Position numbers and translations under genes: made by a program. Below are positions 2,671 to 10,065 of a stretch of 16,625 nucleotides of DNA, in pieces. Below the pieces are notes generated by a model, which did not search any database, had not been told where the DNA came from, and saw only the letters and a list, made by a program, of their open reading frames with translations. Positions within the stretch are counted from its first letter, which is position 1. Every line of letters begins with the position of its first letter. The stretch is taken from the IMG/VR virus record IMGVR_UViG_2778261459_000008; one strand, written 5' to 3'. The DNA is from a virus. Taxonomy: Duplodnaviria; Heunggongvirae; Uroviricota; Caudoviricetes.

Positions 2671-3894
2671 ATGGCTGGTGGAACGAACAAATTAAGCGAT
2701 ACATCGCTTCGTAAAATGCTGGGAAGGGAGAGCCCCGGAGACAGCTTCTATGCTGATGGCGATGGGCTAAGTGTGAAGGTGTCCAGATCGGGCGTGTTGA
2801 CTTGGTATTTCACTTTCCGCATAGGTGGCCGGGAATCAACATCTCAGCGTATAAAGCTGGGTAATTATCCAGACCTTTCACTCAAAGCAGCTCGTGAGAA
2901 ACGAGAGCAGTGTCGCGCATGGCTCGCAGAGGGAAAGAATCCAAAGCACCAGTTGAGCGTTACGACTCAGGAAACGTTAAAGCCGGTGACAGTCAGGGAT
3001 GCCCTTGAATACTGGATCAGGGAATATGCCACCCATAACCGCGCTAATGTTGAAAAGCACATTGAGCAGCTCAATAAGCATATCTTTCCTTATATAGGTA
3101 CTTATCCGCTTTCTATGTGTGAAACTCGCCACTGGCTGGAATGTTTCGCCAGGGTAAGGAACGAAGCGCCTGTAGCGGCTGGCTATCTTTTGCAGATGTG
3201 TAAGCAAGCACTCAAGTTCTGCCGGGTTCATCGGTATGCGGTGAGTAACGTCCTGGACGATCTGACCATTGACGATGTTGGACGTAAACAGAATAAGCGG
3301 GACAGGGAGCATACCCGGCAAGAACTTGCTGATATATGGCGAGAATGCTCAGGCCTGAAATTTAAGCCCTACTACTCAGCTCTATTACGTCTGCTGGTGG
3401 TGTTTGGCTGCCGAACTCAGGAGCTGAGATTATCTCGCGTAACCGAATGGGATCTAAATGATTGGGTTTGGACGGTACCTAAAGAGCACAGCAAAGGTGG
3501 TGAGAAAATACTACGGCCTATTCCCGTAGATATTCGCCCATTTATCAAACAGCTTTTAGAGCAGCACCAAAGCACAGGGCTATTGCTGGGAGAGATAAAG
3601 AAACCGGAAGCTGTCAGTCAGTGGGGAAGGATGTTGTATAAGCGTCTGGGCCACTCTGAACCGTGGACGCTTCACGATTTACGCCGTACATTTTCCACGA
3701 CTCTGAACAACATGGGAATTGCTCCGCATGTTGTCGAGCAGCTTCTGGGCCATGCGCTGGGCGGTGTCATGTCCGTATATAACCGCAGTCAGTATTTACC
3801 TGAAAAGCTGGATGCACTGAATAAATGGATGCAGAGATTAGATGTTATTACCTCTGATATCTCAAATGTTACTATTCTTGAGGTCGCAAGATGA
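2671..3894 (+). CDS. int: tyrosine site-specific integrase (P4/CP4-57-like phage integrase family)
   Basis: 407-aa ORF; N-terminal DUF4102-like arm-binding region (GLSVKVSRSGVLTWYFTFRIGGRESTSQRIKLGNYPDLSLKAAREKREQCRAWLAEGKNP); C-terminal catalytic signature (HDLRRTFSTTL ... LGHALGGVMSVYNRSQY); SD GAGG 8 nt upstream of the ATG. Confidence 0.9.
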   Translation: MAGGTNKLSDTSLRKMLGRESPGDSFYADGDGLSVKVSRSGVLTWYFTFRIGGRESTSQRIKLGNYPDLSLKAAREKREQCRAWLAEGKNPKHQLSVTTQETLKPVTVRDALEYWIREYATHNRANVEKHIEQLNKHIFPYIGTYPLSMCETRHWLECFARVRNEAPVAAGYLLQMCKQALKFCRVHRYAVSNVLDDLTIDDVGRKQNKRDREHTRQELADIWRECSGLKFKPYYSALLRLLVVFGCRTQELRLSRVTEWDLNDWVWTVPKEHSKGGEKILRPIPVDIRPFIKQLLEQHQSTGLLLGEIKKPEAVSQWGRMLYKRLGHSEPWTLHDLRRTFSTTLNNMGIAPHVVEQLLGHALGGVMSVYNRSQYLPEKLDALNKWMQRLDVITSDISNVTILEVAR

Positions 3895-4848: not shown

Positions 4849-5058
4849 ATGAACAATATTAAACAATCCCAGCAGCCAGCAGAAAGAGTTATCCGTGAGG
4901 CTGAGTGCCGGCAGCTAACCGGTATTTGTCGAACCACTCGATACATGATGGAAAAAGAGGGGAGCTTTCCCGCCCGCCGCAAGCTGGGAGGTCGTGCTGT
5001 TGGTTGGCTTCTGTCTGAGGTCACAGCATGGCAGCAGAGCCGCAGCAAAGCAGCGTGA
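4849..5058 (+). CDS. alpA: AlpA-family phage/island transcriptional regulator (excisionase-like HTH)
   Basis: 69-aa product MNNIKQSQQP...CRQLTGICRTTRYMMEKEGSFPARRKLGGRAVGWLLSEVTAWQQ carries the AlpA signature (LTG.sR.T.Y....G.FP....LGGR.VGW...E...W). Start at 4849 chosen over the upstream in-frame ATG at 4813 by length similarity to AlpA; no clear SD for either. Confidence 0.8.
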   Translation: MNNIKQSQQPAERVIREAECRQLTGICRTTRYMMEKEGSFPARRKLGGRAVGWLLSEVTAWQQSRSKAA

Positions 5059-5399
5059 GGGGTGGGAAATGTCACATAAAACAAAAGCGGCCATGCAGGG
5101 CCGCCAATGTCACTACCAAAAACTTAAGCAAAGTCAGGATACCAGGGTTAATGCTAGTGGTCAAAGCCAGAGCGCTGCTGGGATTAAAGGAACTGCGGCA
5201 TTGGCGCACACCCTATTTCCCCAAATCTGGGGAGAACTGGATCATCATGCGGGGTGTGCTGCAATGCAGCATACCCCGGAGAAATCCCGTAGTTTCGACA
5301 AATACCCAGATATTGGGTGTTATGGCCTGCATAAAATCACACCTGCGGTTCTTATTCCTGTCCCCGGCTCTTCTTTAGCTCATTTGCAATGGCGGATAT

Positions 5400-5654
5400 T
5401 TAATCACGTGGTAACCAGCCTTTCGCATTCCTTTTGGGGATTGGAAGGTTCTTTTCCTTCAAAATACGTAAAATGGCAGGTTCTGAATGTGGTCCCCAAC
5501 CATCCCAATTACCTTCCCAACAGTCGTTACAGCAGAAAGCCCTACCGTATAATTGCAGTACACGTCCTTGGTAAAGGTCTGGGCCAAATCGTGTTTCTGA
5601 TCCACAGACTTCACATGTGCAATAAAAATGCCCTTTCTCATCTATGCGCATCAT
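5400..5654 (-). CDS. hypothetical Cys-rich small protein (putative zinc-binding), second gene of a two-gene minus-strand operon
   Basis: Product MMRIDEKGHFYCTCEVCGSETRFGPDLYQGRVLQLYGRAFCCNDCWEGNWDGW... contains C-x-C-x2-C and CC-x2-C clusters; GAGGA sits 5 nt upstream of the ATG at 5654; it lies 1 nt downstream of the stop of the upstream RHH gene. The ORF track extends it to a TTG at 5666. Confidence 0.5.
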   Translation of the reverse strand: MMRIDEKGHFYCTCEVCGSETRFGPDLYQGRVLQLYGRAFCCNDCWEGNWDGWGPHSEPAILRILKEKNLPIPKRNAKGWLPRD

Positions 5655-5667
5655 CTTCTTCCTCAAA

Positions 5668-5877
5668 TCAACCTTTTGGTTCTATTCCTTGCCGACGCAA
5701 TTCCGCGCGAGCTAATTCTTTTATCCAATTACCAAGACTTACGCCTTCGCGCTCCGCTGCATCGTTCAGTTGCTGGCGTAGATCAGGGTTGATTCTGATC
5801 TGGAAAGTAGGTGACCAGCCATCACCTTTAGGGGTTTTGTCTCGTTTAATTGTTGACACGTACGTACATAACCTCAT
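5668..5877 (-). CDS. ribbon-helix-helix (CopG/Arc/MetJ-like) DNA-binding protein; start codon uncertain (ATG at 5877 or GTG at 5859)
   Basis: The C-terminal 45 aa (SPTFQIRINPDLRQQLNDAAEREGVSLGNWIKELARAELRRQ) has the beta-strand plus two-helix pattern of RHH repressors. The ORF-track N-terminal extension to 5970 is merely the translation of the palindrome and is unlikely to be coding. Confidence 0.55.
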   Translation of the reverse strand: MRLCTYVSTIKRDKTPKGDGWSPTFQIRINPDLRQQLNDAAEREGVSLGNWIKELARAELRRQGIEPKG

Positions 5878-5904
5878 AGCATGTATTTTGTTATGTACGT
5901 ACGT
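5858..5904. promoter_or_regulatory. perfect 15-bp inverted repeat (ACGTACGTACATAAC, 17-bp spacer, GTTATGTACGTACGT): candidate operator in the divergent control region
   Basis: Read directly: 5858-5872 is the exact reverse complement of 5890-5904. It lies between the minus-strand RHH gene and the plus-strand replication operon starting at 5993; TTGACA is at 5852-5857. Confidence 0.6.
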
Positions 5905-5992
5905 TATCACGTCTGGCATAGAAAAGACAACGCCCCAAACTGTTGGAGCAGTATTGGGGCGTCTAACCAAACCGTTAGTTGAGGTAACAGTT

Positions 5993-6205
5993 ATGGCTGA
6001 ATTACAGCATACCCAAACTCGCCCGGAATTTACATGGAGATTTATCTCTGCTTCTGAGCGCTACCCTACCGCCAAACCATTGGTGATCTACGTCAACGCA
6101 TCCAGCGAACAGGAGGCCCGCGACACTATGCCGGGTGTAAACCTCATTTTCGCAGCACGTCTCCCATTCCATGCCTTTCAGGCAATGGAGGTACGCCATG
6201 CGTGA
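5993..6205 (+). CDS. hypothetical protein, 70 aa, first gene of the replication-module operon
   Basis: ATG at 5993 with GAGG 8 nt upstream; product MAELQHTQTRPEFTWRFISASERYPTAKPLVIYVNASSEQEARDTMPGVNLIF...; stop overlaps the next start. The 403-aa track ORF 4994-6205 is mostly spurious read-through; only this 3' part looks genic. Confidence 0.5.
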   Translation: MAELQHTQTRPEFTWRFISASERYPTAKPLVIYVNASSEQEARDTMPGVNLIFAARLPFHAFQAMEVRHA

Positions 6206-6383
6206 ATTAACCAATAAAAGTGCGTCAATAGCCTGTGAACTGGCTGCGTTGTTGATGGTTGTCGAAGAGTGCGACGTTGATCAGGTTGAGCGTGAAAACC
6301 TTATCAGTCTGGCCAGACGAGTATCGGATCAACTGGCGGCAAGCATGGTCGAGCAGAATTCAACGGGGGGGCTCAATGGATAA
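6198..6383 (+). CDS. hypothetical small protein, 61 aa, paralogue of the next gene
   Basis: ATG at 6198 with GGAGG 6 nt upstream; overlaps upstream stop and downstream start. Confidence 0.5.
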   Translation: MRELTNKSASIACELAALLMVVEECDVDQVERENLISLARRVSDQLAASMVEQNSTGGLNG

Positions 6384-6603
6384 CTTTTACACCTACCGCA
6401 GCAAAAAAGATTTGCTGTTACTGGCGCAAGAGGTTGCCGCGCTTCTGTCATGTGCTGCTTACCTTGCGACTACCAGAGGCGAGGAAGAGCGTATCCATGT
6501 AATGAGTTTGACGCACCTGGCTCAACGGCTTTCTGACGAGCTGGCAAACTCACTGGATATTTCTACTTTTTCAGACCCTGAATCGCGGGAGGCAAAATCA
6601 TGA
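6376..6603 (+). CDS. hypothetical small protein, 75 aa, paralogue of the previous gene
   Basis: ATG at 6376 preceded by a G-rich SD-like run; shares the pattern A..LAALL...ER...SLA.R.SD.LA.S with the 6198-6383 product; overlaps the next start (ATGA at 6600-6603). Confidence 0.5.
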   Translation: MDNFYTYRSKKDLLLLAQEVAALLSCAAYLATTRGEEERIHVMSLTHLAQRLSDELANSLDISTFSDPESREAKS

Positions 6604-6968
6604 TCAGCAATGTGAAGTTTTACGAGCTGGCTAAGCGCGTTGATCTGCTGGTTGAAAAGGTTTTGCATCTTGAGGCACAGGTTAAGTCACTCACTGATAG
6701 TCAGGGGGGGGAAATCCCTCCGGGTATGACGCCAGTAGCAACACTGGCCGCTGAATACGGTATCTCAACCAATAAGGCTGAGGAACTGGCGAAAAACACA
6801 GGGGTGATGCTGGTTAAGCTGAAATCTGGCGGGTTCGTTGCACCTGATGAAAAGTTCAGGGAAGCGGCGCGTCTGGTGCTGCGCAGCGCTAAGCGCAAAT
6901 ATGGCTCTGCGTACTGGTTCCATCCTCTGATCGGCAAATTCCAGATGAGCGGGGGCATTCCAAAATGA
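6600..6968 (+). CDS. hypothetical protein, 122 aa, translationally coupled to the helicase gene
   Basis: ATG at 6600 with GGGAGG 8 nt upstream; ATGA overlap with the downstream gene at 6965-6968; no recognisable motif. Confidence 0.55.
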   Translation: MISNVKFYELAKRVDLLVEKVLHLEAQVKSLTDSQGGEIPPGMTPVATLAAEYGISTNKAEELAKNTGVMLVKLKSGGFVAPDEKFREAARLVLRSAKRKYGSAYWFHPLIGKFQMSGGIPK

Positions 6969-8329
6969 CGGTACAACTGACAGCTGTAGAAACCGTTTCT
7001 GATGCCCTGTTCACCTGTTCGTATCTGTGGGCGCACGGCAAGCAATACAGTCGCAGCGATTTGGATAAAGCGCTCCACCAGCATAAGGACCCCACTACCC
7101 GTTACGGAAAGCTGGTGGCTCGCCTCAACCAGATAGCAGCAATGCCGTATGAGGAACTCTGTGATGCCGGATATCTCGATACGGACCGCAAACAAATGAT
7201 TACAGCGCGGCGTTCTGTGCTGGTGGAAGAGATAGGCGAAGGGGAAATGAATGCCATGCTGTCTGACGTGCAGCGCATTCACCGGGTCTTCCCTGATGCT
7301 GGTGCAAAGTTCAGGACAAAGCTGCCTCTCTCTCGCGGTTCTGAGGGCTTTGATATCCGTCAGGACTATGTCCTTAAACACTTTCTGCCAGCGCAATCAC
7401 TGTGCAGCATTTACGGTCCCAGCGGTTCGTATAAGAGTTTTCTCGCTGTATCGTGGGCCTGTCACATTGCTGCGGGTCTGCCATGGGCTGGGAAGAAGGT
7501 CACTTCCGGCGCGGTGCTGTATGTGGTTGGTGAGGGGGGCGTAGGCGTTCCCCGGCGTATAAAGGCTTGGGAGCAGGTGCACGGCATACAGGCGGACAAC
7601 CTCTGGCTGGTCAATCGTCCGGTGTTTCCTGTGCGCGAGTCAGAGGTAACGGAAGTGCTTCTGGCTGCCAGACAGATTGAAGCTGAATGTGGTGTGCCGG
7701 TTCGCATGGTGGTGATCGATACGCTGGCCCGTTGTTTTGGCGGTAACGACGAGAACGATGCTCGTGATATGGGGGCATTTATTGAAGGGTGTGACGTTAT
7801 CAAACAGAAAACGGGTGCAACGGTGCTGATAGTTCACCACTCCGGCAAAGATGAAGGGAAAGGCGCTCGCGGTTCCAGTGCTTTCCGCGCTGCGCTTGAT
7901 ACTGAATTTAACGTTAAGCGTGAAGGGGATGGAAAGGCGCTTATTCTGACCTGTACCAAGATGAAAGACGCGGAGGAGCCAGAGCGTAAAGCGTATGACC
8001 TGAGAACGGCAGAGCTTTACACCGATGAAGATGGTGAGCTTGTTTGCTCTCTGGTTGTGCACGATCAGCCGAGAGAGGCTAAAGAGGTTGAGCCTGAACT
8101 GGCCAATGTCTCCCGTCTTAGCGATAACCACCATGCATTATGGCAGGCAGTACGCAGCCGCACAGCTAAGGGGGAGCCATGCACTATCTCCGTCATTAAA
8201 GATGATCTGCGTGCAACACTGGGGACAGATAAAGTGAGAAAGTCATTCTCGCGCTGGCTGGACAAGCTGGAGAGTGAGCAAATTATTCGCATCGAGGGTG
8301 AGAACCTTTACCCGGTAACAGTCGAGTAA
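6965..8329 (+). CDS. replication initiator/helicase, RecA-like AAA_25 (RepA-like) ATPase with predicted C-terminal winged-helix DNA-binding domain
   Basis: Walker A (IYGPSGSYKSF), Walker B-like (VRMVVIDTLARCFGG), HHSGKD motif; C-terminal about 90 aa basic and helical; immediately followed by iterons. Confidence 0.8.
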   Translation: MTVQLTAVETVSDALFTCSYLWAHGKQYSRSDLDKALHQHKDPTTRYGKLVARLNQIAAMPYEELCDAGYLDTDRKQMITARRSVLVEEIGEGEMNAMLSDVQRIHRVFPDAGAKFRTKLPLSRGSEGFDIRQDYVLKHFLPAQSLCSIYGPSGSYKSFLAVSWACHIAAGLPWAGKKVTSGAVLYVVGEGGVGVPRRIKAWEQVHGIQADNLWLVNRPVFPVRESEVTEVLLAARQIEAECGVPVRMVVIDTLARCFGGNDENDARDMGAFIEGCDVIKQKTGATVLIVHHSGKDEGKGARGSSAFRAALDTEFNVKREGDGKALILTCTKMKDAEEPERKAYDLRTAELYTDEDGELVCSLVVHDQPREAKEVEPELANVSRLSDNHHALWQAVRSRTAKGEPCTISVIKDDLRATLGTDKVRKSFSRWLDKLESEQIIRIEGENLYPVTVE

Positions 8330-8543: not shown

Positions 8544-8783
8544 ATGCCTATTACGATTCATGAAATAAAGGAACATTACGATTATTACGGGCTTCATGAT
8601 ATGGTCTCCATGTCAACGAAAGAATACCAACAGATTTTAGCTAATGGTGCTTTGTTCTGGATGGATCATCATGATTTTGTTCGCAGCACTCTTTCCGATG
8701 AAATCTTGGCAACAAACAAGGAGCAACTAGATGCAATAATTGAGCATCTACAACAATACAGAGACAGAATGCCTTCTGCCTAG
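8544..8783 (+). CDS. hypothetical small protein, 79 aa, AT-rich cargo
   Basis: ATG at 8544 with AAGGAG 5 nt upstream; product MPITIHEIKEHYDYYGLHDMVSMSTKEYQQILANGALFWMDHHDF...; followed by a hairpin at 8793-8813. Confidence 0.6.
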   Translation: MPITIHEIKEHYDYYGLHDMVSMSTKEYQQILANGALFWMDHHDFVRSTLSDEILATNKEQLDAIIEHLQQYRDRMPSA

Positions 8784-8820: not shown

Positions 8821-10065
8821 TCAATAATTAAAGTGACTTTCAACTGAAAGTTGTTTGCAGCCCAATAATTTTAAAGCTTTTCGAATGTAATATAAAGCAG
8901 CGGTATTGTCGATAATGTAGCGGAAGGCTTCATTTTTATCTTGTTGTGCATCTCTTAAATTTCTTTCAAATTCTCTTTCATAATCTTCTGCGTAATATTG
9001 ATTGGATTGTCGGCCCATAATAATCAATGTGGTTAAATCTGCTAATTCTTCCTCTGAAAAGAGAGGTAGGTAAGTAGTGGTGATGCGCATTTTTAACCGT
9101 AGGTAGTCTAAAAAATCTTCTGCTCTGATATCGGATAAACTAATTCCTGAATCCTGTAGTGGGTCCAGAAATACGTTATTTTTTTTCATTACGTCTTTTA
9201 TATGTAGTGCGTACCAAGCTTTTTTAAAACGCAATAGTGTATTTTTCCCGCTATGTTTAAGTGGAAATTCAACGCCAATTAAAGATGATAGGTATCTATT
9301 TACAACAATTTTGTCGATTGCTTTTATAAGTTGTTTGTTGCTATTGAGATTAAATTTTTTCTTGATGAATTCCTTTTTTTTCACTGTAAGTGTAGTTACC
9401 CATTCATTTTTATTACCTAGAGCTTTTGAAAGCTTGATTAGATCACGGCGTGAAAATTTATCGGTATACGTACCTGTTTTATACTCATCTTTCAGATTTA
9501 GAGTGAGCTTAATTATTTCTCGCAAACCTTCCGTGAGCTTTTTGAAATAAACAACAAATCTTACAAGGTTAATGATCGGTGTTTTTTCCAAATGTGTCGC
9601 TCCGACATTGGACTCAGGGTATCTAAAAGTTTGTGCTGTGTCGTCTATAGCCACAAAGTCTAATATATAAGGCTCGATTTTTTTTGTAATGTGAAATAGT
9701 CGTATATCTGTCCTCTCAGCGACATCAATCGTGGCATCCCATAGTTTCTTGATGCTGTGGATTTTTGTCACATCAGGAACTGATATCGCCAATCCTCGGA
9801 GATCTGCCATGTCAATGAGGATAGTCTTTAGAGAAAGCTCAATTCCGTGCCTGGCAGAGTAGGCAATCGGATAAACAAGTAAATCAACTTCTCCTCTCTT
9901 GTTATTTTTGTATATATAGTCAGTAAGTATCTCTGGGGTTCTAAGGTAACCTTCAGCATAAGTTAATGAGTCAGGGAAACCATTCGTTCCGACGCAAGCA
10001 TTCAGCCAATCAAATCGACCATTGCCCAAACCAAAGGTGTTATTAAAGATTGTTTCTTTTTCCAT
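8821..10065 (-). CDS. hypothetical protein, 414 aa, AT-rich cargo gene on the opposite strand to the island backbone; candidate accessory/anti-phage function
   Basis: Uninterrupted minus-strand ORF with ATG at 10065 and AAGGA 8 nt upstream; markedly AT-rich versus flanking replication and capsid genes; no Walker, HNH, DPPY or other catalytic motif recognised. Confidence 0.7.
   Translation of the reverse strand: MEKETIFNNTFGLGNGRFDWLNACVGTNGFPDSLTYAEGYLRTPEILTDYIYKNNKRGEVDLLVYPIAYSARHGIELSLKTILIDMADLRGLAISVPDVTKIHSIKKLWDATIDVAERTDIRLFHITKKIEPYILDFVAIDDTAQTFRYPESNVGATHLEKTPIINLVRFVVYFKKLTEGLREIIKLTLNLKDEYKTGTYTDKFSRRDLIKLSKALGNKNEWVTTLTVKKKEFIKKKFNLNSNKQLIKAIDKIVVNRYLSSLIGVEFPLKHSGKNTLLRFKKAWYALHIKDVMKKNNVFLDPLQDSGISLSDIRAEDFLDYLRLKMRITTTYLPLFSEEELADLTTLIIMGRQSNQYYAEDYEREFERNLRDAQQDKNEAFRYIIDNTAALYYIRKALKLLGCKQLSVESHFNY

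What the first reader, a model, noticed from the sequence alone, without database searches (positions are those of the whole stretch)
6198..6603. Tandem paralogous small genes (61 and 75 aa) in the replication operon
The two overlapping genes share a recognisable motif pattern (A..LAALL ... ER ... SLA.R.SD.LA.S), indicating local duplication. With the flanking 70-aa and 122-aa genes they form a translationally coupled string leading into the helicase gene, with none assignable to a family by eye.
Basis: seen in the sequence. Interest (0 to 1): 0.35.

Follow-up and report, generated by a model that had tools for sequence, protein, structure and literature searches.

The report
Paralogous mini-genes in satellite cassette slot
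Two tiny overlapping genes in a capsid-forming phage satellite of E. coli are real, anciently duplicated relatives encoding acidic two-helix hairpins, and they sit in a slot where related satellites swap small genes like cassettes; what they do is untested.

Summary
Gene A (6198-6383, 61 aa) and gene B (6376-6603, 75 aa) overlap by 8 nt. They lie in a five-gene string joined by overlapping stop/start codons: Icd-like, A, B, a 122-aa protein (p122), then a RepA-type helicase. The island lies between yhdJ and fis and has the gene content of a capsid-forming PICI.

A and B are homologous but old paralogs, with 15 of 43 aligned residues identical. Profile-profile score is 26.9; 300 column shuffles gave mean 10.1 and maximum 18.8. 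Both genes are under purifying selection, and both are predicted to be two-helix hairpins. They match no Pfam, NCBIfam, PHROG, PADLOC, PDB or phage-genome entry.

The new result concerns the interval between icd and p122. Across 85 distinct related sequences it carries 13 arrangements of 1-4 small acidic genes from about ten families. These combine freely with three replicase types. Exchange breakpoints fall at gene junctions, many sharing the sequence ATGCGTGA.

Function is inferred only. I favour small protein-binding modulators aimed at helper phage or host rather than replicase partners. The NCBI name "aminotransferase" for B is unsupported. Interest is moderate.

The parts
5853..5882 (+). 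Sigma-70-like promoter candidate (TTGACA-18-TAGCAT) for the icd-A-B-p122-helicase string. It lies in the divergent region between the RHH regulator gene and icd.
   Evidence: Consensus scan, 10 of 12 matches. This is a pattern match only.
5668..5859 (-). Divergently transcribed YlcI/YnfO-family ribbon-helix-helix gene. It is a candidate regulator of the string.
   Evidence: NCBIfam NF041551 E=2.6e-7 and Pfam HicB E=2.3e-5. RefSeq CDS WP_050428151.
5993..6205 (+). Icd-like gene (70 aa), the first gene of the coupled string. Its last codons (..EVRHA*) contain the ribosome-binding site and start codon of gene A.
   Evidence: NF033153 phage_ICD_like E=7.2e-17. phrog_1743 E=1.5e-15. RefSeq annotation.
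6198..6383 (+). Gene A, 61 aa, pI 4.4. Predicted two-helix hairpin (H2-24, H29-56). Occupies cassette position 1 of the variable slot.
   Evidence: dN/dS. AlphaFold2 mean pLDDT 76.6. pI.
6376..6603 (+). Gene B, 75 aa, pI 5.0. Predicted two-helix hairpin (H10-30, H36-65) with a disordered acidic tail. Paralog of A. Occupies cassette position 2, adjacent to p122.
   Evidence: hhalign. AlphaFold2 mean pLDDT 78.1. dN/dS.
6198..6205 (+). Stop/start overlap junction ATGCGTGA, preceded by GGAGGTACGCC. The same junction is shared by several unrelated cassettes in other islands (Icd|A, Icd|C2, C2|D, C2|A, J|A, A|D).
   Evidence: 53 occurrences in 85 distinct icd-to-p122 regions against 1.35 expected from shuffles. 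Junction listing. The exchange breakpoint in L002 falls here.
6600..6968 (+). p122, a conserved basic (pI 9.6) 122-aa protein with an N-terminal coiled coil and an HTH-like C-terminal half. It forms the constant right border of the variable slot.
   Evidence: phrog_6610 E=5e-63. 402 homologs, all unnamed or called 'HTH gntR-type'. Linked to three replicase types.
6965..8329 (+). RepA-family (AAA_25) helicase, 454 aa, the last gene of the coupled string.
   Evidence: PF13481 E=5.9e-42. phrog_2850. RefSeq 'helicase RepA family protein'.

Best explanation
What is shown. A and B are two anciently diverged paralogs of a very small protein family confined to Enterobacteriaceae satellites. Each encodes an acidic, roughly 60-75-aa antiparallel two-helix hairpin. 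Residues conserved across both families are mostly Ala and Leu, plus an invariant Glu in helix 1 and Arg in helix 2, and a mostly conserved Ser-Asp. They occupy a hypervariable cassette slot between the Icd-like gene and the conserved DNA-binding-like p122. This slot lies in the early operon of a capsid-forming PICI inserted between yhdJ and fis.

What is inferred about expression. After the island is switched on, a single transcript starting upstream of icd is translated by stop/start coupling. A and B would then be made together with Icd, p122 and the helicase.

What is inferred about function. The hairpins pair into four-helix bundles (A with B, or B with B where A is absent). They act as small protein-binding modulators whose targets lie outside the island's own replication machinery. 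The most likely targets are helper-prophage or host proteins, for example a helper repressor, by analogy with the position of P4 epsilon just upstream of the P4 primase gene, or a host or helper interference factor. Islands diversify this function by swapping whole cassettes at short conserved translational-coupling junctions.
For: Homology of A and B.

Real coding genes under purifying selection. Conserved families.

Hairpin fold.

cf-PICI context: int, AlpA, helicase, HK97 capsid, protease, portal, connector, HNH, TerS and TerL are present. There are no tail or lysis genes. The island is about 14 kb, between yhdJ and fis. This matches the criteria quoted in 10.1101/2025.02.11.637232.

Slot mosaicism: 13 architectures occur in 85 distinct sequences. 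A and B occur with all three replicase types and both Icd types.

Cassette-precise exchange: L003 is 92-99% identical to the window except for B, which is 50-60% identical. L002 switches at the icd/A junction.

All slot families are acidic (pI 4.4-5.6), whereas p122 is basic.

The family is absent from 50,697 phage genomes. It is tiny even in 1.84 billion representative proteins.

A and B co-occur far more often than independence predicts: 36 of 40 each, Fisher p=5e-15. This fits pairing, but linkage could also explain it.
Against: - There is no functional or interaction data of any kind.
- The target class is argued only from independence of the replicase, acidity, turnover and analogy.
- Position and translational coupling with p122 and the helicase would equally suit a replication or regulatory accessory.
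- A stays identical while B is replaced by a 53%-identical allele in L003. This argues against a finely co-adapted A:B interface.
- The A-B association may be plain linkage or shared descent.
- Structure searches return only generic hairpins, so the fold says nothing about function.
Confidence: 0.45

Rival explanations
1. Replication accessories. A and B help p122 and the helicase initiate island replication, for example as loader or adaptor proteins or as copy-number modulators, in the way the hairpin protein Rop modulates ColE1 replication.
For: They sit immediately upstream of p122 and the helicase and are translationally coupled to them. Their size and hairpin fold are Rop-like.
Against: The same A and B genes precede three unrelated replicases. 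Islands with identical replicases carry unrelated slot genes. There is no Pfam Rop hit, and Rop is not among the top 50 Foldseek PDB matches. p122 is 80-99% conserved while the slot turns over.
Confidence: 0.18
2. Partners or sensors of the Icd-like effector. The slot proteins tune or gate the Icd-like cell-division inhibitor, so the operon doubles as a superinfection-exclusion or abortive module triggered by incoming phage proteins.
For: The slot genes are directly coupled to icd. In E. coli ECOR61, an Icd-like gene plus five linked genes including a primase were needed for cell death triggered by a phage accessory protein (10.1101/2023.04.06.535777). Variable sensors would explain the turnover.
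Against: I could not show that the ECOR61 locus has this architecture. p122 occurs in only 15 of 5426 complete E. coli genomes, and no ECOR61 strain name appears among the 15. Slot content is largely independent of Icd type. There are no PADLOC matches.
Confidence: 0.15
3. The A/B resemblance is convergence between unrelated Ala/Leu-rich helical hairpins, not common descent.
For: The proteins are short and helical. Most of the shared residues are Ala and Leu. BLASTP finds nothing. hhalign probability is only 68%.
Against: Column shuffles and the reversed profile never approach the observed score. Other acidic small proteins from the same slot give no signal. The conserved polar residues (E, R, S-D) align in register.
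Confidence: 0.07
4. One or both ORFs are not expressed. They would then be chance frames in an untranslated leader.
For: None beyond their small size and the lack of any family match.
Against: dN/dS is well below 1, with saturated synonymous change between distant alleles. Length, start and stop are conserved across genera. SD-like sites and coupled junctions are present.
Confidence: 0.02

Closest known systems
Capsid-forming PICIs (EcCIEDL933, EcCIGN02175, KpCIDSM30104)
   Same: The island layout matches: int, alpA, replication genes, own capsid/portal/terminase module, no tails, near-identical copies in several genera (papers).
   Different: The cf-PICI texts I checked give no function for these small genes; notes only a variable gene of unknown function downstream of alpA. 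The icd-to-p122 cassette slot and the A/B family are not described in what I could read.
P4 epsilon / P1 icd-ant arrangement (from my own knowledge of these phages)
   Same: Small early genes sit between an immunity-type region (with Icd in P1) and the primase/helicase. They are translationally coupled and directed at the helper or at the element's own repressor.
   Different: A and B have no sequence similarity to anything in the phage collection. No antirepressor activity has been shown. This is an analogy of position only.
Rop/Rom of ColE1 plasmids
   Same: A roughly 63-aa antiparallel helical hairpin with an Ala-rich interface, encoded on a mobile replicon. Rop forms a four-helix bundle dimer.
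   Different: There is no Pfam hit and no Foldseek hit among the top 50. A and B are not tied to one replicon type. No RNA-based copy control is evident.
Phage 'accessory regions' and mosaic gene boundaries of lambdoid phages
   Same: There is a high-turnover set of small genes of unknown function between conserved flanks, with exchange points at gene boundaries.
   Different: Here the region is in a satellite, inside a translationally coupled operon. A short shared stop/start junction (ATGCGTGA) recurs between unrelated cassettes.

Membership tests
Capsid-forming PICI | Size 10-18 kb with an integrase, a regulation module (alpA) and a replication module | tested here: met
   int 2671-3894, AlpA PF05930 E=9e-16, RepA helicase PF13481 E=6e-42. 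The island is about 14 kb, between yhdJ and fis.
Capsid-forming PICI | Own packaging module (capsid, protease, portal, connector, HNH, TerS, TerL) and no tail or lysis genes | tested here: met
   RefSeq annotation of the identical HZ13 locus lists all of these, then one 93-aa CDS and fis.
Capsid-forming PICI | Induced by a helper phage and transferred using helper tails | not testable with these tools
   This needs experiments.
Icd-like (NF033153) | Match to the NCBIfam model above its cut-off | tested here: not met
   A and B have no hit. Only the upstream 70-aa gene matches (61.2 bits against a cut-off of 25).
Aminotransferase (the name NCBI gives to many B-family proteins) | An aminotransferase domain of any class | tested here: not met
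   B (75 aa) has no aminotransferase domain in Pfam or NCBIfam at E<=1: none in Pfam, one unrelated weak NCBIfam hit (E 0.11). The name appears only as a source label.
Rop/Rom | Sequence match to Pfam Rop, or structural match to Rop chains | tested here: not met
   No Pfam hit. No Rop among the Foldseek PDB top 50, and all matches have E>2. Only the generic hairpin fold is shared.
Phage antirepressors (P1 Ant / KilAC, P4 epsilon) | Sequence similarity to known antirepressors | tested here: not met
   tblastn of A and B against 50,697 phage records finds no match at E<=1. There is no Pfam ANT hit.
Phage antirepressors (P1 Ant / KilAC, P4 epsilon) | Binds and inactivates a repressor | not testable with these tools
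   This needs interaction and induction assays.
Known anti-phage defence components (PADLOC) | Match to any PADLOC model | tested here: not met
   No hit for A, B, Icd or p122.
A/B hairpin family (unnamed, defined here) | Helix 1 motif A-x-E-[LV]-A-A-L-L and helix 2 motif L-x-x-[LI]-A-x-R-[LV]-S-D-x-L-A, length 60-80 aa, located between icd and p122 | tested here: met
   Joint alignment A3. Invariant residues are A17, E19, L23, L45, A49, R51 and L56 in B numbering. Location census.

The most novel reading that the evidence does not exclude
The icd-to-p122 interval of cf-PICI-type satellites is a recombinase-free cassette array. Small acidic hairpin proteins, with A and B as one duplicated lineage, are swapped at a shared roughly 8-19-nt stop/start junction. 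Each cassette neutralises or senses a different helper-phage or host protein, so the array sets which helpers an island can exploit or resist.
Probability: 0.22. Interest if true: 0.65.

Novelty: new member of a known kind. Interest (0 to 1): 0.4.

Why it matters
In the cf-PICI papers I read, helper induction of alpA and helper interference are described without a mechanism. This work identifies a compact, high-turnover set of small genes expressed with the island's earliest functions. It also shows that these genes are exchanged as units. That gives a short list of candidates (A, B and about eight other families) for simple deletion, swap and pull-down experiments on helper specificity. It also corrects a widespread database name ("aminotransferase") for the B family. 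On present evidence, though, these remain uncharacterised small accessory genes of a mobile element, which is a common situation.

Tried and rejected
- BLASTP of A against B gave no alignment at E<=100. Gapped Smith-Waterman and profile methods were needed instead.
- Pfam, NCBIfam, PHROGs and PADLOC gave nothing for A or B.
- The PDB sequence search with the joint profile gave only noise at E about 1.
- Foldseek of the B model against PDB and BFVD returned only generic hairpins with E>1.
- The exhaustive HMMER search of the joint A+B profile against 1.84 billion representatives found no bridging or distant families. Hits were only A and B members, frameshift fusions and low-complexity proteins.
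- Rfam found no C4/CI-type RNA or any other family above threshold. Two sub-threshold hits, including a SAM/SAH hit inside B at E=0.05, are treated as chance.
- I tried to find the ECOR61 Icd/primase cell-death locus among complete E. coli genomes through p122. Only 15 genomes carry p122, and none is recognisable as ECOR61.
- hhalign between A or B and the other slot families (C, D, E, F, G) found no relationship. I therefore do not claim that the whole slot is one superfamily.

Full report
**1. What is in the sequence**

The window is E. coli chromosome and is 100% identical to strain HZ13 over the region tested. After acrS and yhdJ there is an island with the following genes:
- a tyrosine integrase (2671-3894)
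- a DUF6387 gene
- AlpA (4849-5058)
- a divergently oriented YlcI/YnfO ribbon-helix-helix gene (5668-5859, minus strand)
- on the plus strand, an Icd-like gene (5993-6205), gene A (6198-6383, 61 aa), gene B (6376-6603, 75 aa), a 122-aa gene here called p122 (6600-6968) and a RepA/AAA_25 helicase (6965-8329)

Further right lie an HK97-type capsid gene, protease, portal, head-tail connector, HNH, TerS and TerL. In HZ13 the island then ends before fis, with no tail or lysis genes. This is the gene content used to define capsid-forming PICIs (10.1101/2025.02.11.637232; 10.1101/2022.09.08.507074).

The five plus-strand genes are joined by stop/start overlaps, each preceded by a GGAGG-like site:
- ATGCGTGA at icd/A
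- ATGGATAA at A/B
- ATGA at B/p122
- ATGA at p122/helicase

A sigma-70-like site lies at 5853-5882.

**2. Is the A/B resemblance real?**

BLASTP reports nothing. Four other tests support the resemblance:
- Gapped Smith-Waterman scores 51 against a shuffle mean of 24.0 and sd of 4.5. None of 5000 shuffles reaches it.
- I collected 73 A-type and 77 B-type clusters and aligned them (A1 and A2). hhalign gives E=4.9e-5 and probability 68% over 43 columns.
- The score of 26.9 stands 7 sd above 300 column-shuffled controls, whose maximum is 18.8. The reversed profile scores 9.2.
- As a biological control, seven small-protein families from the same genomic slot were compared all against all. Only A-B is significant, and the 20 other pairs have E>=0.02.

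Two further observations agree. In a search of 9709 ORFs from 82 loci, each family's HMM ranks the other family first after its own members. A joint MAFFT alignment reproduces the register and shows invariant A17, E19, L23, L45, A49, R51 and L56 in B numbering.

AlphaFold2 predicts the same architecture for both proteins, a two-helix hairpin with mean pLDDT of 77-78. I conclude that A and B are homologs.

They are old homologs. Over the 43 aligned codons, identity is 35% at the amino-acid level and 42% at the nucleotide level.

**3. Are they genes?**

Both have conserved length and ends across Escherichia, Enterobacter, Klebsiella, Citrobacter, Kluyvera and others. Pairwise dN/dS is 0.04-0.70, mostly 0.2-0.35, with synonymous sites saturated between distant alleles. 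They are protein-coding and under purifying selection.

**4. What the surroundings show**

I fetched 80 loci through the helicase, 80 through p122 and several through individual A and B proteins. I then classified the interval between icd and p122. Among 85 distinct icd-to-p122 sequences there are 13 architectures built from about ten families.

| Architecture | Count |
|---|---|
| A+B | 34 |
| D | 13 |
| H | 12 |
| C+D | 9 |
| B alone | 4 |
| A+D | 3 |
| C2+D | 3 |
| F+D | 2 |
| C2+A+B, F+J+A+B, G+C+D, I+A, J+D | 1 each |

Family E occurs in three further loci.

These architectures occur upstream of three unrelated replicases: the RepA helicase, a D5_N/DUF5906 primase and a 711-aa primase. 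They also occur downstream of two Icd types. p122 is the constant right border.

All slot families are acidic, with pI 4.4-5.6. p122 is basic, with pI 9.6.

Exchange is cassette-precise. The Enterobacter soli island L003 is 92-99% identical to the window on both sides, but only 50-60% identical across B. The Kluyvera island L002 changes from about 55-60% to 96% identity exactly at the icd/A junction.

Many junctions between unrelated cassettes share the same stop/start sequence. The upstream gene ends ..E-V-R-H-A* and the downstream gene begins M-R-[D/E/K], giving GAGGTGCGYC-ATGCGTGA. ATGCGTGA occurs 53 times in the 85 regions against 1.35 expected. Such short shared junctions are plausible crossover points. 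That last step is my inference.

A and B co-occur far more often than independence predicts (36 of 40 each, Fisher p=5e-15). Linkage could explain this, and each gene also exists without the other.

**5. What the family is not**

- A and B match no Pfam, NCBIfam, PHROG or PADLOC model.
- They have no PDB relative by sequence.
- There is no structural match better than E about 1 in PDB or BFVD.
- tblastn finds no hit in 50,697 phage genomes.
- An exhaustive HMMER search of 1.84 billion representative proteins with the joint profile returned 22 hits. All are A or B members, frameshift fusions or low-complexity proteins.
- The label "aminotransferase" that NCBI records attach to many B proteins has no support.

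**6. How it most likely works**

Shown:
- paralogy
- coding status
- hairpin fold
- translational-coupling layout
- cassette mosaicism
- independence from replicase type

Inferred:
- The string is one transcript made when the island is activated.
- A and B are made together with Icd, p122 and the helicase.
- The hairpins form four-helix bundles, as A:B or as B:B where B stands alone.
- They bind proteins outside the island's replication machinery, most plausibly helper-prophage or host factors.
- Cassette turnover diversifies that targeting.

The positional analogy is with P4 epsilon, which lies upstream of the P4 primase gene, and with P1 icd-ant. This rests on my own knowledge and was not tested here.

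I give this explanation about 0.45. The rivals are:
- a replication accessory (0.18), weakened because A and B are not tied to any one replicase
- modulators or sensors of the Icd-like effector (0.15), prompted by the ECOR61 cell-death locus with an Icd-like gene and a primase (10.1101/2023.04.06.535777); I could not connect that locus to this architecture
- convergence rather than homology (0.07)
- non-expression (0.02)

**7. Comparison with what is known, and novelty**

The island is a member of the known cf-PICI kind. The cf-PICI texts I checked assign no function to these small genes; one passage notes only an unexplained variable region downstream of alpA. The A/B family has no name or model in any library searched.

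The finding as given, two paralogous small ORFs, is a new member of a very common kind: uncharacterised small accessory genes in a mosaic region of a mobile element. The added value is the cassette-slot picture and the shared junction, which give concrete experiments.

Interest is 0.4.

Noticed in passing
window 4994-6205 (+): A 403-codon open frame runs in phase into icd. It crosses the alpA 3' end and lies antisense to two minus-strand genes. It stays open for 256-413 codons in many related loci (for example L003, L006, L009) but not in L002, L005 or L008. Gene callers sometimes report it as a long Icd, for example a 266-aa product in L084. [quoted passage not shown] It is probably an artefact of antisense coding, but that is not settled.
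   Followed up: partly
window 5920-6096, hairpin 5931-5950: The icd leader and 5' end are 87-93% identical to a stretch on E. coli plasmid records, annotated 'hypothetical protein' (32 of the 56 matching places in that search are on plasmids). The leader contains a perfect 9-bp hairpin (ACGCCCCAA...TTGGGGCGT). On the minus strand this reads as a terminator-like site. A second small inverted repeat brackets the icd ribosome-binding site. No Rfam family matches. It may be a regulatory or antisense RNA element.
   Followed up: partly
window 5400-5666 (-): An unannotated 88-aa Cys-rich ORF (CTCEVCG...CCNDCW, zinc-ribbon-like) lies between alpA and the RHH gene. RefSeq has no CDS there. Among all fetched loci it occurs only in the window itself and three loci that carry an identical copy. 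It may correspond to the 'variable gene downstream of alpA' mentioned for other cf-PICIs.
   Followed up: partly
window 6600-6968 (p122): Residues 37-116 of p122 are 33-35% identical to the C-terminal part of phage proteins annotated 'anti-repressor' and 'KilA-N domain-containing' (E 2e-5 to 5e-5). The antirepressor-annotated protein itself has no Pfam domain. p122 keeps its place next to three different replicase types.
   Followed up: partly
B-family proteins in public databases: Many NCBI and UniRef records name the 75-aa B protein 'aminotransferase'. No domain search supports this. It is likely a propagated misannotation.
   Followed up: yes
window 8821-10065 (-), 8544-8783 (+): A 414-aa DUF3775-annotated gene lies on the opposite strand, in a low-GC stretch (0.33-0.40) between the replication and packaging modules. 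This is the position where cf-PICIs are said to carry immune systems. There is no PADLOC match. In E. coli SCU-125 the same position holds two different small genes.
   Followed up: no
L088 (record 'Klebsiella phage P12620-1', PQ569648.1, 97-104 kb): A 106-kb record deposited as a phage contains an Icd-C2-D-p122-p121-primase-capsid stretch of cf-PICI type. The record may include a satellite, through co-assembly or co-packaging. Most genes in this stretch are unannotated or 'hypothetical'.
   Followed up: no
window 6517-6557 (+): A sub-threshold Rfam SAM/SAH riboswitch hit (21.9 bits against a gathering score of 40, E=0.05) lies inside gene B. It falls in the most conserved coding segment of B and is most likely chance.
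   Followed up: no
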